From: Puniceicoccales bacterium
GTDB taxonomy: Bacteria > Verrucomicrobiota > Verrucomicrobiia > Opitutales > UBA9783
Assembly: GCA_031283895.1 (NCBI GenBank)
Contig: JAITAV010000010.1
Location: 43,823-107,822, forward strand
Reading direction: 5' to 3'
Length of the DNA: 64,000 bases
Under the pieces are notes generated by a model that saw nothing but the letters and a program-made list of their open reading frames with translations, was not told the DNA's origin and ran no database searches. Below, piece after piece: positions 19,632 to 34,397 of this stretch; position 1 is the stretch's first letter, and each line of letters opens with the position of its first letter. A program made the translations under genes and the position numbers.

Positions 19632-22600
19632 TTAGAATCGAACGTCTTCTAAGAGTTGCTGCTGTTTAGATCCCAATCGTACATCCAAACACAACCCCTG
19701 CATTTCTTTTACTAAAACATTAAAAGACTGAGGTATTCCCGCCTGTAAAGAATGATGTCCTTTTACAATAGCTTCGTACACACGTGTACGCCCCTGCACA
19801 TCATCTGATTTTACGGTCAATAACTCTTGTAAATTATAAGCAGCACCATAAGCTTCCAAGGCCCACACTTCCATTTCTCCGAAACGTTGGCCACCGTATT
19901 GCGCCTTTCCACCCAATGGCTGTTGCGTAATTAAACTGTAGGGGCCTACCGCACGCGCATGAATTTTATTGGCAACCAAGTGATTAAGTTTCATCATATA
20001 AATGCAGCCAACCATCACCTTTTGAAAAAACGCTTCACCCGTACAACCGTCGTATAAGGTTATTTTACCACTTTCAGGCAAATTTGCCTTTTTCAAATAC
20101 GTACGAATGGTATCTTCCGAAACGCCATCAAAAACCGGTGTCGCAATTTTAATACCCAAAGCACGACAAGCCCAACCTAAATGCGTTTCCAAAACTTGTC
20201 CCACATTCATACGACTTGGAATACCTAGTGGATTTAAAATGATATCCACCGGTGTCCCATCGGCTAAAAAAGGCATGTCTTGCACGGGCACAATCTGGGC
20301 GACAACCCCTTTGTTGCCATGACGACCCGCCATTTTATCGCCCACTTGAATCTTACGCTTTACGGCAATGTAAACTTTTACATTTTTAATGGTACCCGTT
20401 TCTTCACCTTCTTCTTCAACGTGTCGAATTTTTGCTTCGTATTCTTCCTCCAAAAGTTCAAAACGCTTCTTGAACTGATTCAAAATGTCAACAATCTTAA
20501 CTTTCACAGGTGATTGTTCTATCTGTAAACTATCGGGGGCCGAAGCTAGACGGCGTAGCAAAGTTTTAGTAATTTTACGATTTGCCGGAATAATAATTTC
20601 ACCTGTCTTTTGGTGGGTGATATTTAAAGGGATTTTTTCGCCCAATAAAATATTGGACAAAGCTTCCGTTAATTCTTCGCGCAAATGTTCCTTTGCAGTC
20701 CTCTGTTCTTCCGTAATTTTCTTAAGCTTACGACGGTAATCTACCGTTTCAACAGACCCTTCTTCATCTTCCTTATCGGCATGCACCGATGTTCGGACAT
20801 CCATGACGATTCCTGAACAACCGGGAGGTGCGATCATTGAAGAGTCTTTAATATCGGCTGCCTTTTCACCAAAAATTGCTCGCAATAATTTCTCTTCTGG
20901 CGCCAATTCAGTTTCACTTTTAGGTGTAATCTTGCCAACCAAAATATCCCCCGGATGCACCTCAGCACCCACACAGATAATGCCATTGCGATCCAAATTT
21001 TTAAGCGCTTCTTCGCCCACATTGGGAATGTCACGTGTAATTTCCTCAGCTCCCAATTTTGTATCGCGAGCAGTCACTTCAAATTCCTCAATGTGAATGG
21101 ATGTAAAAACATCTTCTTTGACGAGACGCTCACTCAAAATAATAGCATCTTCAAAATTGTAACCATTCCAAGGCATAAAAGCAACCAAGACATTGCTTCC
21201 CAACGCCAATTCTCCGTCCTGCGTTGCGGCACCATCTGCCAAAATTTGACCTTTCTTCACCGTATCATCCAAACGTACCAAAGGTCTTTGATTAAAACAG
21301 GTAGTTGCATTGGAACGAATAAATTTGCACAAATTGTAAACGTAAACGCCTTTCTTGCGGTCCATCTTTAAAGACTTATCCATACGCGATGGCAAAGTCC
21401 CACCCGTTGCAACAACAATATGTTTTCCGTCAACTTCGACGACTTTTCCATCTGCTTCGGCAACCACTACGGTACGAGAATCTTGAGCCACCTTAGCTTC
21501 AAGACCCGTTCCTACGAAAGGCGCTTGAGCTCGCAATAATGGAACTCCTTGACGTTGCATATTCGATCCCATCAAAGCGCGACTCGCATCGTCGTGTTCA
21601 AGGAATGGAATCAACCCCGTGGCAACGGAAATCAACTGCTTTGGAGAGACATCCATATAATTAACTTCTTTGGGATCCACTTCAATTACTTCAAATCTTT
21701 TACGCGCCGTAATTCTTCCTTCCAGGCGACCTTCTTTATTGATGAAAGAATTGGCTTGGGCAACAATTACTTGTTCCTCCTGATCTGCTGTCAAATAATG
21801 AACTTCATCGGTTACCATCCCCTTCTTTACTACCCTATAAGGGGTTCCAATGAAACCAAATTCGTTGACATTTGCGTACGTCGTCAACGAATTAATTAAA
21901 CCAATATTGGGCCCCTCCGGTGTTTCAATGGGACATATACGTCCATAATGCGAAGCGTGTACATCACGCACTTCAAAACCAGCTCGATCACGGTTTAATC
22001 CTCCCGGACCCAACGCTGACAAACGACGTTTATGCGTTAACTCGGCCAATGGATTAATTTGATCCATTAATTGCGATAATTGACTACGCGCAAAAAAGTC
22101 ACGTACAACGGTTGCCAAAGCTTTGGTATTCATCAAACGCTGCGGCGTGACGGCATCCACCGTTTGATCATACAATGCCATGCGCTCTTTCACAATGCGC
22201 TCCGTACGAGATAATCCTAAACGACACTGATGATATAGCAATTCTCCCACTGGACGTACTCTACGGCTTCCCAAATGATCGATGTCATCCACCACACCAT
22301 TGCCTTTTTTCAAACTGCACAAATAACGCGTCGCTTGAACGATATCATTGGGTTGCAGCAAACGTTTAAATAAATTGACATTTTCGCCAAATTTTTGATT
22401 TAAACGATAACGCCCTACACGCCCTAAGTCATAACGCTTCTCATCAAAAAACAACCTTTTAAATAAACTTTTAGCGTTTGCCAAAGTCGCTGGATCTCCT
22501 GGACGCAAACGCCTAAAAATCTCTCTCAACGCTTCTTCTTCATTGGGAATTGTATCTTTTTTTAAACAACGAATAATGGCCCCTTCATCCACACTGCTGT

Positions 22601-23420
22601 CTACAATCCATACATTTTCAACATTAGACTGCGTAAACGCTTGTAAGACCGTTTGTGTCACAGGTTCAAACGCACGTGCTAACACTAATCCCTTGGTTGC
22701 ATCAATCACATCTTCAACCAAAATGTACCCCGTCAAATCTTCTTTTAATAACAACACCTGGACGGATACTTTTTCTGGTGCATAAAAAAGCTTTAAAATA
22801 TCCATATCACTGCTAAATCCAAGTGCACGTAAGAATGTAGTCACCAAAAATTTACGACGACGACGACGACGATCCAAATAAACGTATAATAAATCGTTGG
22901 GATCAAATTGTACCTCAATCCAAGTACCACGGTCAGGAATAATGCGAAAAGAGTGCAGTACTTTACCTGTTGTGTGCGCCTCTTGTTCAAAACAAATACC
23001 GGGCGATCTGTGCAGTTGACTGACAACTACTCTCTCGGCTCCATTAATGATAAAAGAACCTCTTTCCGTCATCAATGGAATTTCACCCATATAAATTTCA
23101 CTTTCCTGAATAGATTCTTCAGCTTTAAGCCGCAAGGTTACATATAAGGAAACAGAATAAGTACTGCCCTCTCTAATGCATGTATAATCCGATTGCTTCG
23201 GTTCCACAAGCTGATAAGACACGTACTCCAAATGAAACTTATTGTCGTAACTTTCGATCGGAAAAACTTCTTGGAATACAGCTTCCAGTCCAACATTTTC
23301 CCGTTGACGTGGCGCTTTATCCGCCTGTAAAAACTCCTTAAAAGAAGCGAGCTGCAATTGTATTAAATCAGGTGGTAGAATAACCTCATTTAGCTTTCCA
23401 AAATTAATGCGATGTGACAT
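19632..23420 (-). CDS. rpoB: DNA-directed RNA polymerase subunit beta
   Basis: 1262 aa; [43 protein letters not shown]. Confidence 0.98.
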
Positions 23421-23469
23421 AAAATAAACAAAATCTTAACAAGGATTTTCTCTCCATCCTATCCTTGTT
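23421..23469 (-). terminator. rplL-rpoB intergenic hairpin plus T-tract (attenuator/partial terminator candidate)
   Basis: On the minus strand, AACAAGGAT (23469..23461) pairs with ATCCTTGTT (23446..23438). This is followed by AAGATTTTGTTTATTTT immediately before the rpoB start. Confidence 0.45.
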
Positions 23470-23497
23470 CACACAAGACACGTTCACAAATCAAAAA

Positions 23498-23875
23498 TCA
23501 CTTAACTTCAACCTTTGCACCAGCTGATTCAAGCCTTTTTTTGAGATCTTCCGCCTCTTGTTTTCCTATACTTTCTTTGACAGCTTTCGGAGCTCCTTCT
23601 ACTAAGTCTTTAGCCTCTTTTAAGCCTAAACCTGTAATGGCACGAATCTCTTTAATAACATTGATCTTATTGGCGCCAGCATCTGCCAAGATAATGTTAA
23701 ATTCCGTTTTCTCTTCAACGGCTTGCTCGGCAACTACAGGCGCTGCGGCAACCGCAACCGGAGCGGCGGCACTCACACCCCACTTTGCTTCAAGCTCTTT
23801 AACCAAATCAGCAATTTCCAAAACTGACTGATTACTCAACCATTCAATAACTTGATCCTTTTTTAGATTACTCAT
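23498..23875 (-). CDS. rplL: 50S ribosomal protein L7/L12
   Basis: The track ORF starts at 23890. I trimmed it to ATG 23875 ([13 protein letters not shown]), preceded by AGGAGGAAAT. Ala/Val hinge and C-terminal [17 protein letters not shown]. Confidence 0.96.
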
Positions 23876-23934
23876 ATTTCCTCCTAGCACAGATTAGCGT
23901 TCATCTTTTATTCTTTTTTTCTCAGACGAAGCAT

Positions 23935-24492
23935 TTAAGGAGATAAAATCTCCCTAACCTGACCTGAAAAATTATTTTGTGATACGGCTCCTTTTTCGTA
24001 CGCTTTTAGCAGAGTCAAAAAACTCTGCGGGATACCTTGCATGATGTGCAAACATTGACGATAAGGTGTCCATAACAAGGATAAAAACATAGCCCTTAGC
24101 GTTGCTAAATCAGGCAGTTTTGATAAAGCATCCAAAGCCATAACATCGTACAACTGTCCTTCCACACAACCCCCTTTCGCGTTTAACTTTTCTTTATCCT
24201 TAGCAAACCGCAGCAACAGTTTAATGACACCTGATGGATTATCACCTCCGTACACAATGGCGGTTTGGCCTTCCAACCACTGCACAAAAGAAGGCCATTT
24301 GAGATCCTCTCCCACTTTACGTAAAATTGCATTTTTAACAACGTGAAAATAAGCCCCTTCTCCAGATAACTCTGCTCGTAGTTGTGCAATTTCCGAAACC
24401 GTTACACCTCTAAAATCAACCAAATACCAATAATTTGAATCCTTAACGCGGTTTGAAACTTCGCGCACCAAGAATGTTTTTTCTATTCTCAT
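23935..24492 (-). CDS. rplJ: 50S ribosomal protein L10
   Basis: 185 aa; YLVDFRGVTVSEIAQLRAEL..HVVKNAILRK. It lies upstream of rplL. Confidence 0.95.
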   Translation of the reverse strand: MRIEKTFLVREVSNRVKDSNYWYLVDFRGVTVSEIAQLRAELSGEGAYFHVVKNAILRKVGEDLKWPSFVQWLEGQTAIVYGGDNPSGVIKLLLRFAKDKEKLNAKGGCVEGQLYDVMALDALSKLPDLATLRAMFLSLLWTPYRQCLHIMQGIPQSFLTLLKAYEKGAVSQNNFSGQVREILSP

Positions 24493-24512
24493 CCAATTTT
24501 TCTTTCTAAAAC

Positions 24513-25229
24513 CTATTTTCCGTAACGAGCCAACAAAGTTTCATGCAAAGTGAGCCCTGGGCTCATTGTGGTCGAAACCACTGCACGTTTGACAAATTTA
24601 CCTTTCAAAGATGTGGGATGCGCGTGTTGAATAGCTTGCAATGCACTTTCTGCATTTTCTACGAGCTTCTGAATACCTAAAGAACGTTTTCCTATACCCA
24701 TTTGCACATTGGCACTTTTATCCATTTTGAACTCCACACGCCCTTTTTTCAAAGCTTCAATGCAAGTTACCAAGTCGTCTGTTATCGTACCCGTCTTTGG
24801 ATTGGGCATCAACCCACGCGGTCCCAATATACGCGCAACGACTTTTACTTCTTTCATCGCTTCAGGCGTAGCAACGGCCACATCAAAATCCAACCAACCT
24901 TCTTTAACTTTTTCAATCAAATCAGCCAATCCGGCTGCGCAAGCACCCGCACGTACAGCTTCTTCGGGTCTAGTCGTAAACGCAACAACGCGCACCTCTT
25001 TACCGCTACCATGAGGCAGTTGAACAATACCTCTCACCATCTGATCACTTTGCTTGGGATCAACTGCCAAATGCATTGATAATTCAACCGTTTCATCAAA
25101 TTGAGCCGCCGGCATTTCTAACAAACATTGAAAAGCGTCCGCAAGTAATTCGTACGATTTTCCTTCTTTCACTTGTTTCAAAGCTAATCTATAACGTTTA
25201 CTATGTTTTTTCATTGCTTCTCTTACCAT
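24513..25229 (-). CDS. rplA: 50S ribosomal protein L1
   Basis: 238 aa; KKHSKRYRLA..., RILGPRGLMPNPKTGT. An alternative start is ATG 25214 (MKKHSKRY). Confidence 0.96.
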   Translation of the reverse strand: MVREAMKKHSKRYRLALKQVKEGKSYELLADAFQCLLEMPAAQFDETVELSMHLAVDPKQSDQMVRGIVQLPHGSGKEVRVVAFTTRPEEAVRAGACAAGLADLIEKVKEGWLDFDVAVATPEAMKEVKVVARILGPRGLMPNPKTGTITDDLVTCIEALKKGRVEFKMDKSANVQMGIGKRSLGIQKLVENAESALQAIQHAHPTSLKGKFVKRAVVSTTMSPGLTLHETLLARYGK

Positions 25230-25234
25230 TACTA

Positions 25235-25666
25235 TCAGTCTATCACCTGAATACCCATGTTACGGGCCGTTCCCTCAATCATCCGCACAGCACTCTCCAC
25301 AGAGTGTGAATTTAAATCCGATTGCTTGATATTCGCTATTTCTTCCACTTGCTTGCGAGTTACCGTACCTACTTTTATCTTATTGGGTTCTCCCGAACCT
25401 TTTGGAACCTTAGCGGCCTTACACAACAGTATGGATGCCGGAGGCGATTTCAAAATAAACGAAAAAGACTTATCTGCATAAACTGTTATTACTACCGGAA
25501 TCACTAAGCCTGTCTGATCTTTGGTTTGCGCATTAAACTCTTTGCAAAACGCCATAATGTTAACACCCTTCGCCCCCAGCGCTGGTCCCACTGGCGGTGC
25601 AGGATTAGCCGCACCTGCAGGCAACTGCAAACGTATTTCTCCAATAACCTTTTTTTTGATCGACAT
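25235..25666 (-). CDS. rplK: 50S ribosomal protein L11
   Basis: 143 aa; [33 protein letters not shown]. Confidence 0.97.
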
Positions 25667-25683
25667 AACTTAACAACCCATCT

Positions 25684-26259
25684 TCATTCTTTTTCCCTTT
25701 GAACTTGCCAATACTCCAATTCAACGGGGGTGAAACGTCCAAAAATAGAGACTGAAATCTTTAATTTTCCTCTTTCGGGATCCACAACATCAATTTTACC
25801 GGTTAAATTTAAAAATGGCCCATCTATAATTTTAACCATTTCTCCAACTTCATACGCAACCTTCAAAACTTTTTTACCTTTGGTCTCTTCCACTTGTCCC
25901 AGTATGCCTTCCATCTCTCTCTTTTTAAGGGCAATGGGATGGTCTCCTCCCATAAAATTTAAGACTCCCTGAATGTTTTTTACGTACGAAGCAACCTGCT
26001 GTAACATTTCTCCCTTCTCGTCGTAAAGCCGCATATGAAGGAAAATGTAACCCGGATAAAATTTATGAACCTTACTACTCTTTTTACCATTTTTAACCTC
26101 TATGACCGTCTTGGTAGGAACTAAGACGGTCCTTATGTATGCCCCCAATCCCTCAATGGTGGTAAAATGATCCAAATGACGCTTAATTTTTAATTCCTGA
26201 TTAGAAGCCGTTTGAACCGCATACCATTTAAAACTATCATCTTCTGTTACTTCGGTCAT
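25684..26259 (-). CDS. nusG: transcription termination/antitermination factor NusG
   Basis: 191 aa; WYAVQTASNQE NGN domain and C-terminal KOW (GEMVKIIDGPFLNLTGKI). The secE-nusG-rplK order fits. Confidence 0.95.
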   Translation of the reverse strand: MTEVTEDDSFKWYAVQTASNQELKIKRHLDHFTTIEGLGAYIRTVLVPTKTVIEVKNGKKSSKVHKFYPGYIFLHMRLYDEKGEMLQQVASYVKNIQGVLNFMGGDHPIALKKREMEGILGQVEETKGKKVLKVAYEVGEMVKIIDGPFLNLTGKIDVVDPERGKLKISVSIFGRFTPVELEYWQVQREKE

Positions 26260-26297
26260 CTTAATATGTATATTCTCTATTTTGGGGGATTACATGA

Positions 26298-26501
26298 TCA
26301 ACGACTTACACAGCGTATCAATAGATCGACCATTTGAAATAATGAAAAATCGACCATACTTACAAAAAATCCTAAAAATAATACCCCTAATAAGACAATC
26401 ACTGAAGATTTACGCAATTCATACCAACTCGGCCAAGACGCTTTTTTCAATTCTTCGACCATTTCACGTCCAAAAGTACGTATTTTTTTAAAAATTTTCA
26501 T
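26298..26501 (-). CDS. secE: preprotein translocase subunit SecE
   Basis: The track ORF (to 26546) runs into tRNA-Trp. I trimmed it to ATG 26501 (MKIFKKIRTFGREMVEELKKASWPS...), which has a single C-terminal TM. It lies between tRNA-Trp and nusG. Confidence 0.85.
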   Translation of the reverse strand: MKIFKKIRTFGREMVEELKKASWPSWYELRKSSVIVLLGVLFLGFFVSMVDFSLFQMVDLLIRCVSR

Positions 26502-26516
26502 CTTCGTTTTACACCT

Positions 26517-26592
26517 TGGCAGGAGAAGAGGGACTCGAACCCCCAACCGACGGTTTTGGAGACCGCTGCGCTACCAATTGCGCCATTCTCCT
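26517..26592 (-). tRNA. tRNA-Trp (anticodon CCA), 3' CCA encoded
   Basis: The reverse complement AGGAGAATGGCGCAATTGGTAGCGCAGCGGTCTCCAAAACCGTCGGTTGGGGGTTCGAGTCCCTCTTCTCCTGCCA folds as a cloverleaf. The anticodon loop is CTCCAAA. Confidence 0.93.
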
Positions 26593-26683
26593 ATTCGAAA
26601 TTCCACCTTCATGCCCAATAACCTTTCTGGAAGTCTTATTTTTTTTGTCAACGAAAATCGTCCCCAAACGTTACCCCAAGCAC

Positions 26684-27874
26684 TTAGGCAATAACTTCAA
26701 CAATACGTCCTGCACCAATGGTTCTTCCGCCCTCGCGCATGGCAAAACGCTGCCCTTTTTCCATGGCAACCGCCTTCTGCAATTCAATTTCAATGGACAA
26801 ATTGTCCCCCGGCATCACCATTTCGACCCCATCTGGTAAGGCACAAACCCCCGTCACATCGGCTGTACCAAAGAAAAATTGAGGACGGTACCCTTTAAAG
26901 AAAGGCGTATGGCGGCCACCTTCATCTTTTGTTAAAACATAAATCTCGGCCTTAGCCTTCGTATGCGGTGTAATAGACCCAGGTTTCGCCAAAACTTGAC
27001 CGCGTTCGACATCTTTTTTTTCAATACCTCTCAATAAAACACCCACGTTGTCACCTGCCTGCCCACGATCCAACAACTTATGAAACATCTCAACCCCTGT
27101 ACACGTTGTACTGTGCGTTGGACGCAATCCTACAATCTCCACCGTATCACCTACTTTAATGCTACCCCGTTCAATGCGACCCGTTACAACAGTACCTCTT
27201 CCCGTAATGCTAAAAACATCTTCAATGGACATTAAAAAAGGCTTTTCTAAATCGTGCTGAGGCTCAGGAATATCCTTATCAACGGCCTCCAACAAACGGC
27301 TGACGGAATCTACGCCTTCGGGTTTTCCTTCCAAAGCTCCCAAAGCAGACCCACGAATAATCGTAATATCATCACCTTTATATTCGTATTTGTTCAAAAG
27401 GTCCCTAATTTCCATTTCTACCAATTCGAGCAACTCCGGATCATCCACAAGATCTACTTTATTGAGAAAAACAACTAAATTAGGTACGCCTACCTGACGC
27501 GCCAGTAAAATGTGTTCACGGGTTTGAGGCATAGGACCATCGTAGGCACTGACCACCAAGATAGCACCATCCATTTGCGCAGCCCCCGTAATCATATTTT
27601 TTACAAAGTCCGCATGTCCCGGGCAATCTACGTGTGCGTAGTGACGAACCGTCGTTTCATATTCAACGTGTGCAACGGCAATTGTAACGATTTTGGAAGC
27701 ATCCCGAACGGTACCTCCTTTTGCAATTTCTGCATAAGACTTACATTCTGCCAATCCTTTGTCCGATTGAACTTTAAGAATAGCCGTTGTGAGTGTTGTT
27801 TTACCATGGTCCACATGACCAATTGTTCCCACATTAACATGTGGTTTTGTTCTTGCGAAGGTTTCTTTAGCCAT
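26684..27874 (-). CDS. tuf: translation elongation factor Tu
   Basis: 396 aa; [21 protein letters not shown]. It carries the [21 protein letters not shown] variant of the switch-I region. Confidence 0.98.
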
Positions 27875-27909
27875 ACAAAAAAATTGAGGTTAAGATAAAA
27901 TTTGGCTGA

Positions 27910-27985
<76 letters not shown>

Positions 27986-28190
27986 AACTTCTCATCCACT
28001 TCTGGCTTTTGACCAAAATACTGTGAAAGTTAAACTTTTGATACCTAATTGCAAACAGTCAACCTTTTATTTAAAAAAATATTAAAAAACAAGGATAATT
28101 AATCTTTTCGATTACCATTGCACGCATCTGAAAATTTTCAAAACGCATGATCATCCTCCATCCCCAATCATTTAACCCATTCAACGTTCT

Positions 28191-28928
28191 TCAAAATACT
28201 TTCACAGCATTTCCCAGACAATGTAACTGCAATTTGATTTCGGCAAACTTATTGCGATAATGCTGACCTTTTGCCCACAACATCACCTTTGACAAGATCC
28301 AATATCTACCATAGTTAAAATAACTTACACGTGTAAAAAGATTCTTTTTAGGTAGGTACAATTGCGACTTATAAAATGGAACATTCCCTTTTTCTATGAT
28401 GGCCACTAAAAATTGTTCCAAATTTTTTTCATTATTCAGCATTGCTTCCCATTTAACAATGGGTTCGCGAAGCATGGCAAGATACTTTGTATCATCTTGA
28501 TCGAGTTCTATCACTTTCCGTATCACAGCATCCAAATTGTCATATTCGTGACAATTAATAAAAGCCTTTGTATTCAACAATGTGCCTATACCTGGATCTC
28601 CCCAATAAATTGGAATAGAATTTGCCATGAAAGGATGTACCAGTTTTTCGGTTACGTAGCCTTCACTGGAAGCATTTTCAAAGGCAATTGTAAACTTATA
28701 ATCTTTGATAAAATCTATCTTACTCTCCCACGCATTACCACCTCCTCGCGGAACAATGGCCCGTTGCATGTTATTTAAAACACGTCCAGGACAATCCACC
28801 TTTTTGTAATGCATTAATTTCTTAGCAAAATCCTGCCTTAAAATGGCTCCGTCGCCTTTGGAAGCATTGCAGTATACAAAATTACAAAACTTTCGATGCA
28901 GACATGTTTGATCCACTTGCAAACGCAT
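28191..28928 (-). CDS. GT10-family alpha-1,3/4-fucosyltransferase-like protein, C-terminal catalytic fragment (gene interrupted by an in-frame TAA)
   Basis: 245 aa; YKFTIAFENASSEGYVTEKLVHPFMANSIPIYWGDP matches the GT10 FxxxFENxxxxxYxTEK...IP(V/I)YxG motif known from Helicobacter FucT. Confidence 0.8.
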   Translation of the reverse strand: MRLQVDQTCLHRKFCNFVYCNASKGDGAILRQDFAKKLMHYKKVDCPGRVLNNMQRAIVPRGGGNAWESKIDFIKDYKFTIAFENASSEGYVTEKLVHPFMANSIPIYWGDPGIGTLLNTKAFINCHEYDNLDAVIRKVIELDQDDTKYLAMLREPIVKWEAMLNNEKNLEQFLVAIIEKGNVPFYKSQLYLPKKNLFTRVSYFNYGRYWILSKVMLWAKGQHYRNKFAEIKLQLHCLGNAVKVF

Positions 28929-28967
28929 ACGTTCACAGGATTTAAAAATCGGAATATCTGAATTATG

Positions 28968-29327
28968 TTAAAAATGACGTGATCCAAAGCGAATTGGATG
29001 GCACGTAATGGCATAATCGCATTCGTTGAAATTGGGCATAACATTTTCTTCCGTGTAAAATATTTTAACGCAATTGGTATATTGCCTAAAAGCATCTCCC
29101 CAGCAGGAATAAAACAAAAAATCAGCGTTCGGGCCTATTTCAACGTGGTAATACTTTTTTAATATAGCAACAAACTTTTGCCCTTGGATATCCGATGGCC
29201 CCGATATACCCGCACAAAAATCGGCAAAAGCAATTCTTATCGTCTGCTTTTCCGCAGGTAGAGCAAACGTTACTGCAAAAGAAATAATAATCAACCAAGC
29301 GATGCGGTTCAAATGTGGCCCCCTCAA
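28968..29327 (-). CDS. GT10-family fucosyltransferase-like protein, N-terminal fragment (ends at in-frame TAA 28970..28968)
   Basis: 119 aa; N-terminal hydrophobic anchor (IAWLIIISFAVTFALPA), then IRIAFADF... and KIFYTEENVMPNFNECDYAI, colinear with the FucT N-domain. TTG start, only 22 nt after tRNA-Leu. Confidence 0.7.
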   Translation of the reverse strand: MRGPHLNRIAWLIIISFAVTFALPAEKQTIRIAFADFCAGISGPSDIQGQKFVAILKKYYHVEIGPNADFLFYSCWGDAFRQYTNCVKIFYTEENVMPNFNECDYAITCHPIRFGSRHF

Positions 29328-29349
29328 TCCTTACGCATATTATAAATGC

Positions 29350-29433
29350 TGGTGCTTGAAAAGGGACTCGAACCCTTACACCTTGCGGCACTAGATCCTA
29401 AGTCTAGCGTGTCTACCATTCCACCATTCAAGC
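29350..29433 (-). tRNA. tRNA-Leu (anticodon TAG), long variable arm, 3' CCA encoded
   Basis: The reverse complement is GCTTGAATGGTGGAATGGTAGACACGCTAGACTTAGGATCTAGTGCCGCAAGGTGTAAGGGTTCGAGTCCCTTTTCAAGCACCA. The anticodon loop is CTTAGGA. Confidence 0.92.
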
Positions 29434-29491
29434 AAAAACATATACTCCTCGCTGCCTTCATAACCCGTACACCTCCATCATCAAAAGTTTT

Positions 29492-31081
29492 TCATTTGAT
29501 GCAAACCTGAACAAAAGATTTAAATAAAGGGTGCGCTGCATGTGGCTTAGATTGGAACTCTGGATGGTATTGCACACCTATAAACCACGGATGTCCTTCC
29601 AATTCAACGGCCTCAATAACGTCTAAGTTGCGGCACATACCAGCAATTTTCAATCCTTTTTCAGTCCAAAGATTGCATAATTGTTTATTAACTTCGTAAC
29701 GATGACGGTGTCGTTCAAAAATGGTATTTGCTTGATAAACCTCTTCCAATAAAGAATGGGGAACTATATTACATTCCATCATGCCCAAACGCATGGATGC
29801 TCCCTTACGCATATTTTCTTTTTGTTCTTCCATAAGACCAATGATGGGTGTCGTAGTTTGCGCATCAAATTCGGTACTGGTTGCGCCTGGTAAGTCGGCA
29901 ACGTGACGTGCAAACTCAATCACAGCCAGTTGCATACCCAAACAAATTCCTAAATAAGGAATGCCTTTTTCGCGCGCGTAACGGATCGCCATTATTTTCC
30001 CCTCAATGCCTCTTATCCCAAAACCTCCGGGGACTAAAATTCCGTCTAGATCTTTTAAATTCTTGTCCACACGATTTTGCTCCAACCATTCCGCATCTAT
30101 CGGTTTCACTTCGACGGTACACTCATTGGCAATGCCCGCGTGAAATAAAGCTTCATAAATAGATTTATAAGCATCCTTTAAATCAACATATTTGCCGATT
30201 ACACCAATTTTTACACGGTACTTGGGAGAGCAGATCTTACTCACAATCGTTTTCCACGTATTTAAATTGGAGGGACGATAAGGCATTCCAAAATGCGCTA
30301 AAACCAATTGATCTAACTTTTCCTTATGTAAACAAAGCGGTAATTCATAAATGGAGATTTCAACATCCTTTTCCTCAATCACCGACTCCACCGAAACGTT
30401 GCAAAACAAACTTAACTTCTGCCGAATAGATTTTTCAAGCGGCCTTTCGGTTCTACAAACCAAAATATCCGGCTGAATGCCAATTTCACGTAATTTTGCA
30501 ACGCTCTGCTGAGAAGGTTTTGTTTTCAACTCCGAAGAAGCTTTTAAAAATGGGACTAACGTAACGTGCAAAAATAAAACATTGGTTCGACCAAAATCCA
30601 AAACTAATTGCCTCAATGCCTCCAAAAAAGGTAACCCTTCAATATCGCCAACCACACCCCCAATTTCGGTAATTAAAATATCCGTGTCATCGTTGGCTCC
30701 CGATAAAATACGCATTTTAATTTCATCTGTAACATGCGGAATAACTTGAACCGTATTACCCAAATATTGTCCTTGCCGCTCTTTCTTAAGCACACTTTCA
30801 TAAATTTGACCCGAAGAAACACTGTGCTTTCTGGACAAAGCAACGTTGGTAAAACGTTCGTAATGCCCCAAATCCAAATCGGTTTCCGCTCCATCTTTTA
30901 AAACGTATACCTCTCCGTGTTGAAATGGACTCATGGTTCCCGGATCCACATTTAAATAAGGATCAAATTTTTGTAACCCTATGCGTAATCCTTGTTCCTC
31001 CAACAGGGCCCCCAAAGATGCTGCCGTTAGACCTTTTCCTAACGACGATACAACGCCTCCCGTCACAAAAACCAATTTCAT
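29492..31081 (-). CDS. pyrG: CTP synthase
   Basis: The track ORF starts at GTG 31123. I trimmed it to ATG 31081, giving the canonical MKLVFVTGGVVSSLGKG. The GATase domain has GICLGMQ. Confidence 0.95.
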   Translation of the reverse strand: MKLVFVTGGVVSSLGKGLTAASLGALLEEQGLRIGLQKFDPYLNVDPGTMSPFQHGEVYVLKDGAETDLDLGHYERFTNVALSRKHSVSSGQIYESVLKKERQGQYLGNTVQVIPHVTDEIKMRILSGANDDTDILITEIGGVVGDIEGLPFLEALRQLVLDFGRTNVLFLHVTLVPFLKASSELKTKPSQQSVAKLREIGIQPDILVCRTERPLEKSIRQKLSLFCNVSVESVIEEKDVEISIYELPLCLHKEKLDQLVLAHFGMPYRPSNLNTWKTIVSKICSPKYRVKIGVIGKYVDLKDAYKSIYEALFHAGIANECTVEVKPIDAEWLEQNRVDKNLKDLDGILVPGGFGIRGIEGKIMAIRYAREKGIPYLGICLGMQLAVIEFARHVADLPGATSTEFDAQTTTPIIGLMEEQKENMRKGASMRLGMMECNIVPHSLLEEVYQANTIFERHRHRYEVNKQLCNLWTEKGLKIAGMCRNLDVIEAVELEGHPWFIGVQYHPEFQSKPHAAHPLFKSFVQVCIK

Positions 31082-31279
31082 CGACCTGTTCATACCTCTT
31101 GACAACGATTTTGAATCAAGCACAAAACTTCGATAACATCAAGTATGTATCCTCAAATTCATCAAAAGGTTTTCTGTTACAATACCGTAATCTCTCTAAA
31201 ACATAAATCATTCTCCTGATACGGCATACGGTACTTAATTTTGATTTGTAAAACAGAAAATCTAAAATAGAATAAGTGT

Positions 31280-31753
31280 ATGCATATTTTTATAGGAGCC
31301 GACCACGGGGGTTTTGAACTTAAACAAAAAATTGTACATTGGCTGCAACAAAATCGATATCTCGTCGAAGATGTGGAACCTTCTGCGCAAAACCCCTGCG
31401 ACTACCCTTTAATTGCTCAAAAAGTTGCTCTGCGCGTACAAAACAATGATCAACATTTGGGTATCCTTATCTGCACTTCAGGCATTGGCATGTGCATCAT
31501 GGCCAACAAATTCAAAAATGTTAGGGCAGCACTCGTACATACCCCTGAAGCAACACAAAAAGCGCGCGAACATAACCACATCAATATTCTTTGCCTTGCA
31601 GGCACCCTAGATGCTGATACCGCCTACCTCATTGTTCAAAAATGCTTGATGGCCACACCCAGCATGGAATCCCGACATCTAAGGCGCCTAAAACAAATTC
31701 AAGATATTGAAGATCTACAAAAAGCATCCAGCAGACATCGTTGCAAGACATAG
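31280..31753 (+). CDS. rpiB: ribose-5-phosphate isomerase B (RpiB/LacAB family)
   Basis: 157 aa; IFIGADHGGFELKQ, DYPLIAQKVA, GILICTSGIGMCIMANKF, ARAHNHINILCLAG-like segment. Confidence 0.88.
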   Translation: MHIFIGADHGGFELKQKIVHWLQQNRYLVEDVEPSAQNPCDYPLIAQKVALRVQNNDQHLGILICTSGIGMCIMANKFKNVRAALVHTPEATQKAREHNHINILCLAGTLDADTAYLIVQKCLMATPSMESRHLRRLKQIQDIEDLQKASSRHRCKT

Positions 31754-31885
31754 GCATTTTGCTCAACAAGAGCATTGCTAAAAAATCACTTCGACACTTC
31801 TACAAATCATTTTTTCACGATACCGACATCGCCTCTTGTGTCTTCTGATTTGCATTTCTATCGCATTCACCTAAGACTTAACCCA

Positions 31886-33643
31886 ATGCTACAAAAAAAA
31901 CAACGAGGCAGTCTCATATTAGGTATCATGCTACTAAGTACCCTTGGCGCCCTCGTATTCGTCTGTACCTACAAGCAAAATTCTCTGCATAAACAATGGG
32001 TATTCAAAATAAATGCACTACGAGCAGAAAAATTAGCCTTATGGACCTGCCATCACGCACTTAAAAAGTTGTCGAAAAAAGCTACAGCCGATACCATAGC
32101 CACCTATTGTGATGAAAATCCAACACGCCCCATCGTCCAATTTTATGATACATTGAATGGTAATCACTTAAAACCTATCGTGTCCAAAGGTGAATCATCC
32201 ATTCAGGTCAATGTCGATAAAAATAAACGCAATCCCATAGCGTTATCTCTGGAGCAAAAAACAAACAACGTTGCAATCGCTTATGGTATATTAGAAGGAG
32301 ATCTTCTTAAAAATCATACCGACAAAATTCCAATTTGTAATGCAAAACAGGGAGGCTTACGCGAACTTTTTAGTGAAGCAATCTGTAAGTCACCTCCCAA
32401 AAATTTTCCAGGCTCAGAAGCATTATGGAACAAAAACCGCCAGAGACTTCTAAATCTTGAAGACACTCATCAACCCTTAAGTACCATGAATGGTTTTTTG
32501 CCCGTTTTACTTCGTTCTACACTAAGTTTCAGCGAACAAAGCATAACCGTAGAAAACCTTTGGTGGAACCCTTATGATCGAGAATTGCAGGGTGTAATGG
32601 ATTTTCAAATTACACTTGTAATACACTCAGACAGTGGACATACCGCCACCTATCCTACATTTCAATCAACCATAAACATACAACCTGGAAATGTGCATCC
32701 GGATAACCCAGTTAATCTGCCCATCGACCTCAAAGATAAAAAAAATATTTTTCTCAATAGCCTACAAATTCAAACGGGTACTTCGTGTAATCAATGCACG
32801 TATCATATGGATCATATTGCATGTGATCGCTTACCAAAAACGATTACGATATCCTTAAACATTGATGCGCATTGTGATTTTCACGCCATTAACTTGTGGG
32901 CATCTCCCAATGAGATTCCTACCATAGCATCTTCTACCAAGCAGCCTGGATGGAAAAAATCTAAACCATCAGCACCTCAGGTGAAGTCAACACCAAGTAC
33001 CCAACGTTTATGGACATTGGACGAAAAGTTCAAAGACTTCTCTTTTCTATCAAAACAAACGCCTTACTTGACACAAACCTCCTTTCAACGCATGCAAGCT
33101 TGCTTTCTGAAACCTGACCAAATACCGTATGCCTGCATTGGTTGGCCAAATACAGATGGGAATGATCGCATCGGTGCTTACAATCAATTTTTCTGGGATT
33201 ATTACCATTGTGCTCACGCCATGCCACCCCTGAATGTAAACACCGTATCTAACGACTGGTGCATGTATTTTGAAGACGTTTTTAAATCGTTAGGATACGC
33301 GCACAATGCCTCAGCTTTAGAGTATTTTATAGAGAAATTGCGGGCACACGTTGTAAAAAGGAGGCCCTTCCTATCCATAGAACAATTTATTCAATCGGGC
33401 ATTTTGCAAACAACACTTAATGAAGTAGATGAATTTAAAAAGGTTCGCCAAAGCGATATACTTTCCTATTTAAAAAATCCTTTATCGGTACGTTCTGAAT
33501 GCTTTATCATCATCGGCACTGCCGTTGTAAAAAATGGTGGCGAAACTTTTCAAAAAACCTGTAAAATGCTTGTCCACCGCGAAGCTTCAGCTTCAGACGC
33601 AACAAAACGTCTATGGGTAATCGACGGTATTGCCTGGCTGTAA
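31886..33643 (+). CDS. large hypothetical membrane-anchored protein, GspK-like minor pseudopilin candidate
   Basis: The track ORF starts at TTG 31775; ATG 31886 gives MLQKKQRGSLILGIMLLSTLGALVF, a pseudopilin-type N-terminus lacking Glu+5. PPLNVNTV resembles the GspK INxNTA motif. The C-terminus (RRPFLSIEQFIQSG... SVRSECFIIIGTAVVKNG...MLVHRE) is also GspK-like. Confidence 0.35.
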   Translation: MLQKKQRGSLILGIMLLSTLGALVFVCTYKQNSLHKQWVFKINALRAEKLALWTCHHALKKLSKKATADTIATYCDENPTRPIVQFYDTLNGNHLKPIVSKGESSIQVNVDKNKRNPIALSLEQKTNNVAIAYGILEGDLLKNHTDKIPICNAKQGGLRELFSEAICKSPPKNFPGSEALWNKNRQRLLNLEDTHQPLSTMNGFLPVLLRSTLSFSEQSITVENLWWNPYDRELQGVMDFQITLVIHSDSGHTATYPTFQSTINIQPGNVHPDNPVNLPIDLKDKKNIFLNSLQIQTGTSCNQCTYHMDHIACDRLPKTITISLNIDAHCDFHAINLWASPNEIPTIASSTKQPGWKKSKPSAPQVKSTPSTQRLWTLDEKFKDFSFLSKQTPYLTQTSFQRMQACFLKPDQIPYACIGWPNTDGNDRIGAYNQFFWDYYHCAHAMPPLNVNTVSNDWCMYFEDVFKSLGYAHNASALEYFIEKLRAHVVKRRPFLSIEQFIQSGILQTTLNEVDEFKKVRQSDILSYLKNPLSVRSECFIIIGTAVVKNGGETFQKTCKMLVHREASASDATKRLWVIDGIAWL

Positions 33644-33656
33644 AATATCTCATCCG

Positions 33657-34397
33657 TTAAAGTGGCGTAGCATCTTTAGATTTTAAATAAATACGGTGTT
33701 CCTGCAACGCAATTTCCAAGTAGGCAACCGCAAAACAAATATTGGCAGTCGTCACACAAAATTTTGCATTGGCCACCCCGACCAAAGCGTACCATAAGGC
33801 GCACATACTTAGACAAATTTGAGGAATTGCGCGGTTCATATCCCGTCTTACCATGGCAAAATAAGGTGCTAAACAAATAAGAGGGAAAGCCCAAAGTGAT
33901 GTTCCGCCTGCAGCTAAGCCGGCATGCAGCATCCCAAGCGCTATGAGCACAATGGGTTCCTTTAAAAGGGCCAACAATAAAGGCGTCAAAGAATGCGTAC
34001 ATTTTATTTCTTTTAAAATTTTTCCAAAACTCGGAAGTACATCCAAAATACCTTTATTGAGTCGATGGGCCATGAGTAAATTTGCGAAGCCAAAACAAAC
34101 ACTGCAAACAAAACCTACAAAAGCTTCGTTAATCATCGCGAATAAAGCCACCATTAAACAAGCGTAGCCCATCATTTCCAATCCCCAACAGGGATCGTTA
34201 CCAGCTTGCTGCAAAACACCCAAAATGCCTTTCCAATTTTTTTGCGTACACGTCACCAACCAGCGACTCAAGACGATGAGCATCAACGTCATCACCATAA
34301 CCACAAAGGCCAATGGACTGACTAAAGCAAAAAGACACGTATTCCCCAGAGCAAAAAAAGTTCCCGGATCCTTCAAAATCAAACGAATCATATTCAT
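33657..34397 (-). CDS. hypothetical polytopic inner-membrane protein
   Basis: 246 aa with about 6 hydrophobic helices and no recognisable family motif. It is convergent with the previous gene (13-nt gap). Confidence 0.5.
   Translation of the reverse strand: MNMIRLILKDPGTFFALGNTCLFALVSPLAFVVMVMTLMLIVLSRWLVTCTQKNWKGILGVLQQAGNDPCWGLEMMGYACLMVALFAMINEAFVGFVCSVCFGFANLLMAHRLNKGILDVLPSFGKILKEIKCTHSLTPLLLALLKEPIVLIALGMLHAGLAAGGTSLWAFPLICLAPYFAMVRRDMNRAIPQICLSMCALWYALVGVANAKFCVTTANICFAVAYLEIALQEHRIYLKSKDATPL

What the first reader, a model, noticed from the sequence alone, without database searches (positions are those of the whole stretch)
28191..29327. GT10 (Lewis-type) fucosyltransferase-like gene wedged between tRNA-Thr and tRNA-Leu and broken by a single in-frame TAA
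The two track ORFs (28968..29327 and 28191..28928) are in the same frame. They are separated by the TAA codon at 28970..28968 plus 13 sense codons (...GSRHF*HNSDIPIFKSCERMRLQ...). Read through, they are colinear with Helicobacter-type alpha-1,3/4-fucosyltransferases, matching IRIAFADF / FYTEENVMPNFNECDYAI / ...FKYKFTIAFENASSEGYVTEKLVHPFMANSIPIYWGDP. GT10 enzymes are patchily distributed in bacteria and are linked to host glycan (Lewis antigen) mimicry. The gene sits in the only non-core slot of an otherwise conserved tRNA-Thr/tuf neighbourhood. It begins with TTG just 22 nt after tRNA-Leu, which suggests a tRNA-associated insertion now inactivated by one point mutation, or one expressed by stop-codon suppression.
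Basis: partly seen in the sequence, partly recalled or inferred. Interest (0 to 1): 0.55.

Follow-up and report, generated by a model that had tools for sequence, protein, structure and literature searches.

The report
Recently broken fucosyltransferase gene (pseudogene)
A sugar-adding enzyme gene (GT10 fucosyltransferase) in a termite-gut Puniceicoccales bacterium was knocked out by one C-to-T change that turned a glutamine codon into a stop; two sister lineages have broken the same gene in other ways, so this is ordinary loss of an accessory gene.

Summary
On the minus strand, 28191..29312 is one GT10 alpha-1,3/4-fucosyltransferase gene interrupted by a single in-frame TAA (28970..28968). 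It lies between tRNA-Leu(TAG) and tRNA-Thr(GGT).

The window comes from a termite-gut Puniceicoccales MAG. GenBank annotates the two halves as separate hypothetical proteins, LBB19_01575 and LBB19_01570. Five sister genomes, about 90% identical in DNA, carry the gene in the same slot, and all have CAA (Gln) where the window has TAA. Three are intact at 373 aa. Two are broken by different lesions: one by CGA>TGA plus a 1-bp deletion, the other by at least five indels plus a ~280-bp deletion.

An independent Logan assembly of run SRR14710909 reproduces the TAA. TAA is the commonest genuine stop in the window. All 45 family-invariant residues are retained, and pairwise dN/dS is 0.09-0.19, so the knock-out is recent.

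The only informative outgroup has the same synteny but a 203-nt tRNA-Leu/tRNA-Thr spacer with no remnant of the gene. The nearest homologues outside the clade are at most 54% identical and come from other phyla. This fits an old single-gene horizontal gain, though no mobile-element marks are present.

I found no evidence for suppression or recoding. Verdict: an ordinary early-stage pseudogene of low interest.

The parts
28191..29312 (-). Full-length GT10 alpha-1,3/4-fucosyltransferase pseudogene: 373 codons from the conserved TTG start to the TGA stop at 28193..28191, broken at codon 115
   Evidence: It is colinear without indels with the intact 373-aa orthologue P0001 (89% identity). All 45 family-invariant residues are retained.
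28968..28970 (-). Premature TAA stop (codon 115); the ancestral codon is CAA (Gln), so this is a single C>T transition
   Evidence: CAA is present in all five relatives L001-L004 and L045. The TAA is also present in the independent Logan contig L044.
28965..28967 (-). Adjacent window-specific substitution TAT(Tyr)>CAT(His) at codon 116, 3 nt from the nonsense change
   Evidence: relatives read CAA TAT; the window reads TAA CAT.
28971..29312 (-). 5' fragment of 114 codons. It holds an N-terminal hydrophobic segment and most of the FucT_N (acceptor-side Rossmann) domain, including the Glu equivalent to H. pylori E95. GenBank LBB19_01575 is called from TTG 29327 as 119 aa.
   Evidence: (E89 invariant).
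28191..28928 (-). 3' fragment ORF (245 aa from internal ATG = Met129). It holds the GDP-fucose-binding GT10 C-terminal domain (FEN...YVTEK motif) and a basic/amphipathic C-terminal tail. GenBank LBB19_01570.
   Evidence: No Shine-Dalgarno-like sequence lies before this ATG (direct reading).
29319..29325 (-). Shine-Dalgarno-like GAGGGGG, 6 nt upstream of the conserved TTG start at 29312
   Evidence: Direct reading. It is conserved as GAGGAGG or GAAGGAG in the relatives.
29350..29433 (-). tRNA-Leu(TAG), the upstream boundary of the slot
   Evidence: The same tRNA flanks the gene in L001-L004 and L045, and flanks the empty slot in outgroup L046.
27910..27985 (-). tRNA-Thr(GGT), first gene of the tRNA-Thr-tuf-tRNA-Trp-secE-nusG cluster and the downstream boundary of the slot
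27986..28090 (-). Region upstream of tRNA-Thr, part of a block (28090..27800) that is 86% identical to the outgroup. It contains TTGACT at 28062..28057 and is a likely promoter of the tRNA-Thr/tuf unit. It marks the distal edge of the DNA absent from the outgroup (about 28091..29349).
   Evidence: The promoter role is inferred.

Best explanation
This is a very recent loss-of-function allele (early pseudogene) of an accessory GT10 alpha-1,3/4-fucosyltransferase. In the intact orthologues, a 373-aa two-domain GT-B enzyme would take fucose from GDP-beta-L-fucose, bound by the C-terminal domain (N213, Y219, E222, K223 in orthologue numbering). It would transfer the fucose with inversion to a glycan acceptor held by the N-terminal domain, with general base E89 (equivalent to H. 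pylori E95), most likely decorating LPS or another surface glycan. In the window, a C>T transition changed Gln115 CAA to TAA, so ribosomes stop after 114 residues. The base-carrying N-fragment is separated from the donor-binding domain, and no active enzyme is made. The gene entered the tRNA-Leu/tRNA-Thr spacer once, before the six known lineages of this termite-gut Puniceicoccales clade diverged, probably by horizontal transfer from another gut anaerobe. It was kept under purifying selection and is now being lost repeatedly: 3 of 6 lineages are broken by unrelated lesions. SHOWN: the domain identity, the fold of the orthologue, the ancestral codon, the independent lesions, the synteny, the empty outgroup slot, and the use of TAA as a stop. 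INFERRED: the enzymatic specificity and cellular target, the lack of activity of the fragments, the direction (gain rather than loss in the outgroup), and the selective reason for loss.
For: Pfam FucT_N and Glyco_transf_10 both score above their gathering cutoffs, and H. pylori FucT matches at E 1e-25 with E95/N240/Y246/E249/K250 aligned to identical residues. The AlphaFold model of orthologue P0001 (pLDDT 84) best matches 2nzw (E 5e-21, TM 0.62-0.66), then plant and human GT10 enzymes, then generic GT-B folds. All five relatives have CAA at the site, and three are intact. L004 has CGA>TGA plus a 1-bp deletion. L045 has a 5-bp deletion, a 17-bp insertion, 12-bp and 7-bp deletions and a ~280-bp deletion. 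On the flanking 11.5 kb, the window is nearest to intact L001 and L004 is nearest to intact L003, so the lesions are independent. Pairwise dN/dS is 0.09-0.19, including pairs with the window, and 45/45 invariant residues are retained, so inactivation is recent. The Logan contig is identical across the TAA. TAA terminates 26 of 51 long ORFs. All other genes compared in the ~16-kb neighbourhood have the same lengths as in the relatives, so this is not a generally error-ridden assembly. The outgroup slot is empty. The nearest non-clade homologues are 50-54% identical and come from Alphaproteobacteria, Desulfovibrionaceae, Lachnospiraceae and Gastranaerophilales.
Against: Raw read counts at the site were not available. 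The Logan contig probably comes from the same read set as the MAG, so it excludes an assembler artefact but not a consensus drawn from a mixed population. Only one lesion is present and everything else is intact, so residual function through read-through, reinitiation or fragment complementation cannot be formally excluded. The excess of nonsynonymous changes on the window's terminal branch (7 N: 9 S, against 7:27 and 9:21 in two intact lineages) is small, and intact L003 shows a similar ratio (9:12), so relaxed selection is not demonstrated. The polarity of gain versus loss rests on a single syntenic outgroup. Enzyme activity and acceptor are unknown even for the intact orthologues.
Confidence: 0.85

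Rival explanations
1. Sequencing, assembly or consensus artefact, or a minority allele: the real population carries CAA and an intact gene.
For: The source is a short-read MAG and read depth at the site could not be inspected. The change is a single base, and GenBank simply calls two ORFs.
Against: An independent assembly (Logan, a different assembler) of SRR14710909 gives a 1475-bp contig that is 100% identical from tRNA-Leu to tRNA-Thr, including the TAA and the neighbouring TAT>CAT change. The neighbouring genes in the ~16 kb compared are all full length. Sister lineages show that the gene is dispensable.
Confidence: 0.05
2. The gene is still expressed as a full-length enzyme by stop-codon read-through, a suppressor tRNA or recoding of TAA (for example to Gln, the ancestral residue).
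For: The ancestral codon is Gln, and TAA>Gln reassignment exists in some eukaryotic codes (background knowledge). The stop is followed by C, a comparatively weak termination context in E. coli (background knowledge). The rest of the ORF is unblemished.
Against: TAA is the most used terminator of conserved genes in the same window, at 26 of 51 long ORFs including many ribosomal protein genes, so it is not reassigned. The window has only three tRNAs and none is a suppressor. No Rfam recoding element or other RNA family hit lies near the site. Spontaneous UAA read-through in bacteria is very low (background knowledge). An intact remainder is also what a very recent pseudogene looks like.
Confidence: 0.03
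3. A functional split enzyme: the two ORFs are translated separately and reassemble as a two-chain GT-B transferase, as Alg13/Alg14 do for a MurG-like enzyme.
For: In the model of the orthologue, the break falls near the boundary of the two Rossmann-like domains. The stop is at residue 115, right after strand 113-115. The internal Met129 lies in helix 118-130, just before the first strand of the C-domain at 141-144. Met129 is present in 4 of the 5 sequences with a readable frame.
Against: No Shine-Dalgarno-like sequence precedes ATG 28928. Fourteen residues (115-128), including most of a predicted helix, would be missing from both chains. No relative has a conserved two-gene arrangement: the intact ones are single ORFs, and the other broken ones are broken at different places and by frameshifts or deletions.
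Confidence: 0.04

Closest known systems
Helicobacter pylori alpha-1,3/4-fucosyltransferase FucT/FutA (CAZy GT10; PDB 2NZW, 2NZX, 2NZY, 5ZOI)
   Same: Both Pfam domains are present in the same order. Sequence match is E 1e-25, with the general base Glu and the N/Y/E/K donor-binding residues identical. The predicted fold of the intact orthologue matches 2nzw best. The C-terminal tail is basic and amphipathic (direct reading), as I recall for the H. pylori enzyme.
   Different: Identity is only about 25-27%. I saw no heptad-repeat region of the H. pylori type. There is an extra ~22-residue N-terminal hydrophobic segment that most homologues lack. On/off switching in H. pylori uses homopolymer slippage (background knowledge), whereas here the lesion is a plain nonsense substitution with no repeat at the site. 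Acceptor specificity is unknown.
Uncharacterised GT10 proteins of gut anaerobes (Alphaproteobacteria, Desulfovibrionaceae, Lachnospiraceae/Butyrivibrio, Gastranaerophilales, Bacteroidales MAGs)
   Same: These are the closest sequences outside the clade, at 44-54% identity over ~80% of the length with the same two domains. The mix of phyla in a rough tree is typical of horizontally exchanged glycosyltransferases.
   Different: They sit in different genomic contexts and most lack the N-terminal hydrophobic extension. None is from Verrucomicrobiota.
Orthologues in sister termite-gut Puniceicoccales MAGs (Pcl387_bin165 LBD69_01015, Cd354_bin116 LBF43_03840, Gx481_bin184 LBJ78_01020, Cc175_bin121 LBE99_03385/90, and the LBH52_00785 remnant)
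   Same: They occupy the same slot between tRNA-Leu(TAG) and tRNA-Thr(GGT). Identity is 87-91% at the amino-acid level and about 90% at the DNA level across the neighbourhood.
   Different: Three are intact. The two other broken copies carry different lesions, and none shares the window's TAA.

Membership tests
CAZy GT10 / Pfam Glyco_transf_10 fucosyltransferases | C-terminal GT10 catalytic (donor-binding) domain scoring above the curated threshold | tested here: met
   PF00852 E 2.9e-18, 66.6 bits against a cutoff of 23.9, on the 245-aa ORF.
CAZy GT10 / Pfam Glyco_transf_10 fucosyltransferases | Bacterial FucT-type N-terminal domain preceding the GT10 domain in one polypeptide | tested here: not met
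   The PF18025 domain is present (E 7.8e-22) and colinear with the GT10 domain. In the window, however, the TAA at codon 115 separates the two domains. The feature is met in orthologues L001-L003 and P0001. The window copy is therefore a GT10 pseudogene, not a GT10 enzyme.
CAZy GT10 / Pfam Glyco_transf_10 fucosyltransferases | Conserved catalytic and GDP-fucose-binding residues (H. pylori E95, N240, Y246, E249, K250; the FEN...YVTEK motif) | tested here: met
   All align to identical residues. They are invariant in a 36-sequence family alignment (E89, N213, E222, K223; Y219 nearly invariant) and unchanged in the window.
CAZy GT10 / Pfam Glyco_transf_10 fucosyltransferases | GT-B fold (two Rossmann-like domains) | tested here: met
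   The AlphaFold model of orthologue P0001 (pLDDT 84.3, pTM 0.76) has 2nzw, 5zoi, mango FUT13, human FUT9 and Arabidopsis FUT11 as its top Foldseek hits, followed by generic GT-B enzymes. The test was done on the intact orthologue, which is 89% identical to the window copy.
CAZy GT10 / Pfam Glyco_transf_10 fucosyltransferases | Inverting transfer of L-fucose from GDP-beta-L-fucose in alpha-1,3 or alpha-1,4 linkage | not testable with these tools
   This needs an enzyme assay. It is not known even for the intact orthologues.
tRNA-targeted genomic island / integrative element | Integrase gene and direct repeats duplicating the tRNA 3' end at the island borders | tested here: not met
   The 1.36-kb slot holds only the fucT gene. 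No direct repeat related to either tRNA was found; the longest direct repeats are 13-16 nt chance-level pairs. GC3 is 0.349 against a gene mean of 0.379 and lies within the range of window genes.
Programmed stop-codon read-through / codon reassignment | The stop codon concerned is not used as a terminator of conserved genes, or a dedicated suppressor tRNA or recoding signal is present | tested here: not met
   TAA ends 26 of 51 long ORFs. The window holds only tRNA-Trp, tRNA-Thr and tRNA-Leu. There is no Rfam hit apart from the tRNAs and a sub-threshold antisense RNA elsewhere. The whole genome was not available to search for suppressor tRNAs.

The most novel reading that the evidence does not exclude
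The TAA allele is not dead. Either low-level read-through or reinitiation at Met129 yields a two-chain GT-B fucosyltransferase, split almost exactly at the inter-domain boundary (Alg13/Alg14-like). That would be a naturally occurring split GT10 enzyme caught at its origin.
Probability: 0.04. Interest if true: 0.6.

Novelty: new member of a known kind. Interest (0 to 1): 0.2.

Why it matters
The practical value is an annotation fix. LBB19_01570 and LBB19_01575, and likewise LBE99_03385/03390 and LBH52_00785 in sister MAGs, are fragments of one GT10 fucosyltransferase pseudogene, not independent hypothetical proteins. Biologically, it gives a small, clean example of an accessory surface-glycan gene that was gained once in a tRNA spacer and is now being lost in parallel in half of the known lineages of a termite-gut Puniceicoccales clade. 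This hints that fucosylated surface structures are under fluctuating or host-dependent selection there. It opens no long-standing question and involves no new mechanism.

Tried and rejected
1. I looked for further strains or lineages to see polymorphism at the TAA site. An IUPAC pattern across the site found nothing in metagenome contigs. A protein-guided scan of the same collection returned only distant homologues, at most 54% identical. The 90% protein cluster contains only the six lineages already found.

2. The 114-aa product from the second TTG is not on record as a called gene in the look-up of encoding contigs collection. The cluster listing does hold a 114-aa JGI/IMG member, P0252, on the same 166,440-bp contig.

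3. More distant outgroups for polarity were uninformative. pyrG homologues at 68-71% identity sit in other contexts (pyrG-OmpA-LpxK-holA, or pyrG next to a Glycos_transf_4/Mur-ligase cluster).

4. Mobile-element marks: the repeat search and promoter/terminator scan of 27800..29600 gave only chance-level hits.

5. Compositional evidence for foreign origin was rejected. GC is 0.373 and GC3 is 0.349, within the spread of the window's genes.

6. NCBIfam gave no family for the orthologue.

7. Literature searches on Puniceicoccales in termites and on bacterial GT10 pseudogenes returned nothing relevant.

8. Phase variation was rejected. There is no homopolymer or repeat tract at the lesion: the change only lengthens a T4 run to T5 by substitution, and L004's deletion is in a T4 run.

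Full report
**What is in the sequence**

On the minus strand, an ORF of 119 codons (28968..29327) and one of 245 codons (28191..28928) are in the same frame. They are separated by TAA at 28970..28968 and 13 sense codons.
- The first ORF matches Pfam FucT_N (E 7.8e-22). The second matches Glyco_transf_10 (E 2.9e-18). Both score far above the curated cutoffs.
- The read-through sequence carries both domains in the normal order.
- It matches the solved H. pylori alpha-1,3-fucosyltransferase (2nzw, 5zoi) at E about 1e-25. The general base E95 and the donor-binding residues N240, Y246, E249 and K250 align to identical residues.
- tRNA-Leu(tag) lies at 29350..29433 and tRNA-Thr(ggt) at 27910..27985, followed by tuf, tRNA-Trp, secE, nusG and the ribosomal and rpoBC operons.

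**Where the window comes from, and the relatives**

A scan of species-representative genomes found four syntenic relatives, all termite-gut Puniceicoccales MAGs: L001 Pcl387_bin165, L002 Cd354_bin116, L003 Gx481_bin184 and L004 Cc175_bin121. They share 87-91% protein identity with the window copy and about 89-90% DNA identity over more than 11 kb. A sixth lineage, L045 (JGI 3300042596; NCBI tag LBH52), was reached through pyrG.

An exact look-up shows that the window's two ORFs are GenBank MDR2769228.1/LBB19_01570 (245 aa) and MDR2769229.1/LBB19_01575 (119 aa). They are annotated as separate hypothetical proteins on a 166,440-bp contig.

In all six genomes the gene sits between the same tRNA-Leu(tag) and tRNA-Thr(ggt).

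**The lesion**

In the DNA alignment, all five relatives read CAA TAT where the window reads TAA CAT. The stop therefore arose by one C>T transition from a Gln codon, with a second substitution (Tyr>His) 3 nt away.

L001-L003 are uninterrupted, and database entries of 373 aa exist for all three lineages. The 'two conserved genes' alternative is excluded.

The start conserved in all sequences is the second TTG (29312), which follows GAGGGGG. The first TTG (29327) is out of frame in L002. The stop is thus codon 115 of 373.

**Is the TAA real?**

- A Logan contig assembled independently from run SRR14710909 (L044, 1475 bp) spans tRNA-Leu to tRNA-Thr and is 100% identical to the window, including the TAA.
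- The other genes in the ~16 kb compared with relatives are all full length.
- I could not inspect read counts, so a mixed population is not excluded.

**Is TAA a stop here?**

Of 51 long ORFs in the window, 26 end in TAA, 13 in TAG and 12 in TGA, and many of these are ribosomal protein genes. The window has no suppressor tRNA and no recoding RNA family nearby. Read-through or reassignment has no support.

**State of the rest of the gene**

- There are no indels relative to the intact orthologues.
- All 45 residues invariant across a 36-sequence family alignment are retained.
- Pairwise dN/dS is 0.09-0.19 for every pair, including those with the window. The gene was under purifying selection for nearly all of the divergence, so the knock-out is recent.
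- Among codons where the other four sequences agree, the window's terminal branch has 7 nonsynonymous and 9 synonymous changes. The intact lineages L001 and L002 have 7:27 and 9:21. Intact L003 has 9:12, so this is suggestive of relaxed selection but not significant.

**Parallel decay**

| Lineage | State of fucT | Source |
|---|---|---|
| Window | one nonsense change, CAA>TAA at codon 115 | |
| L001, L002, L003 | intact, 373 aa | |
| L004 | keeps Gln115; CGA>TGA at codon 140 plus a 1-bp deletion | |
| L045 | keeps CAA; 5-bp deletion, 17-bp insertion, 12-bp and 7-bp deletions, loss of ~280 bp at the 3' end | |

On the flanking 11.5 kb, the window is closest to intact L001 and L004 is closest to intact L003. 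No lesion is shared. Three of the six lineages therefore lost the gene independently. This is the strongest argument that the window's allele is simply the youngest of several pseudogenes.

**Structure and consequence**

The AlphaFold model of the intact orthologue P0001 has mean pLDDT 84.3. Its best matches are 2nzw (E 5e-21, TM 0.62-0.66), then plant and human GT10 enzymes, then generic GT-B transferases.

The stop follows strand 113-115 of the N-terminal domain. The internal Met129 lies in helix 118-130, just before the C-terminal domain. The general base (E89) is therefore on the 114-aa fragment, and the donor-binding residues are on the downstream ORF. That ORF has no Shine-Dalgarno-like sequence before it. 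I infer that neither piece is active alone. Fragment complementation is a low-probability alternative.

**Origin of the gene**

The only outgroup with the same synteny (rpiB-pyrG-tRNA-Leu-tRNA-Thr-tuf) is L046, from GCA_964316805.1, with pyrG 74% identical.
- It has just 203 nt between the two tRNAs and no detectable fucT remnant.
- Homology to the window resumes about 105 nt upstream of tRNA-Thr, around a conserved TTGACT.
- More distant relatives have pyrG elsewhere.

Outside the clade, the best homologues are 44-54% identical and belong to Alphaproteobacteria, Desulfovibrionaceae, Lachnospiraceae, Gastranaerophilales and Bacteroidales from guts. None is from Verrucomicrobiota.

This favours a single-gene horizontal gain into the tRNA spacer before the clade diversified. 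There is no integrase, no att-like repeat and no compositional anomaly, so the mechanism of insertion is unknown. With only one outgroup, a deletion in that outgroup cannot be excluded.

**Verdict**

This is an ordinary, recently inactivated GT10 fucosyltransferase gene in a termite-gut Puniceicoccales MAG. It is mis-annotated as two hypothetical proteins and is part of a pattern of repeated loss in its clade. It is a new member of a known kind and of low interest.

Noticed in passing
window 61341..62222 (-), with neighbours 60017..61215 (+): A 293-aa protein has a central hydrophobic stretch and a weak, sub-threshold Pfam hit to the type III secretion translocon protein SctB2 (E 0.0021, 18.9 bits against a cutoff of 26.5). 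The flanking ORFs have no Pfam hit and a higher GC (0.45-0.49) than the window mean of 0.41. This may be a secretion-system or effector locus in a gut-symbiont genome.
   Followed up: partly
window ~31753..31776; L002 4446..5586, L003 4470..5541, L004 1009..2175, L045 4391..5224: A ~1.1-kb segment encoding a 277-aa protein with no Pfam or NCBIfam hit lies between rpiB and the 569/622-aa hypothetical gene in four relatives. It is absent from the window and from L001. This is a second presence/absence slot close to the finding, so the fucT slot is not the only variable one.
   Followed up: partly
window 28191..29312 versus flanks 20200..31700: Gene-tree discordance. For fucT, synonymous divergence is smallest between the window and L004 (dS 0.27) and L003 (0.33). 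On the whole 11.5-kb region, the window is closest to L001 (p-distance 0.088). This could reflect recombination among lineages or noise in a star-like radiation.
   Followed up: partly
window 29247..29312 (-), residues 1-22 of the protein: The clade's enzyme has an N-terminal hydrophobic, signal-anchor-like segment (NRIAWLIIISFAVTFALPAEK). It is conserved with conservative I/V changes in all relatives but absent from most homologues, which start at the first beta-strand, and it is modelled with low confidence. The topology this implies for a nucleotide-sugar-dependent enzyme is unclear.
   Followed up: no
window 27795..27948 (+): A sub-threshold Rfam match to the Helicobacter antisense RNA family HPnc0260 (44.4 bits against a gathering score of 59, E 0.0054) lies antisense to the 5' end of tuf and part of tRNA-Thr. 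It probably reflects conservation of the tuf sequence rather than an RNA gene.
   Followed up: no
window 31775..33643 (+) and 33657..34397 (-): Two sizeable ORFs (622 aa and 246 aa) are conserved in the relatives and in outgroup L046 (568 and 243 aa), next to ybeY/prfA. They have no Pfam or NCBIfam match.
   Followed up: no
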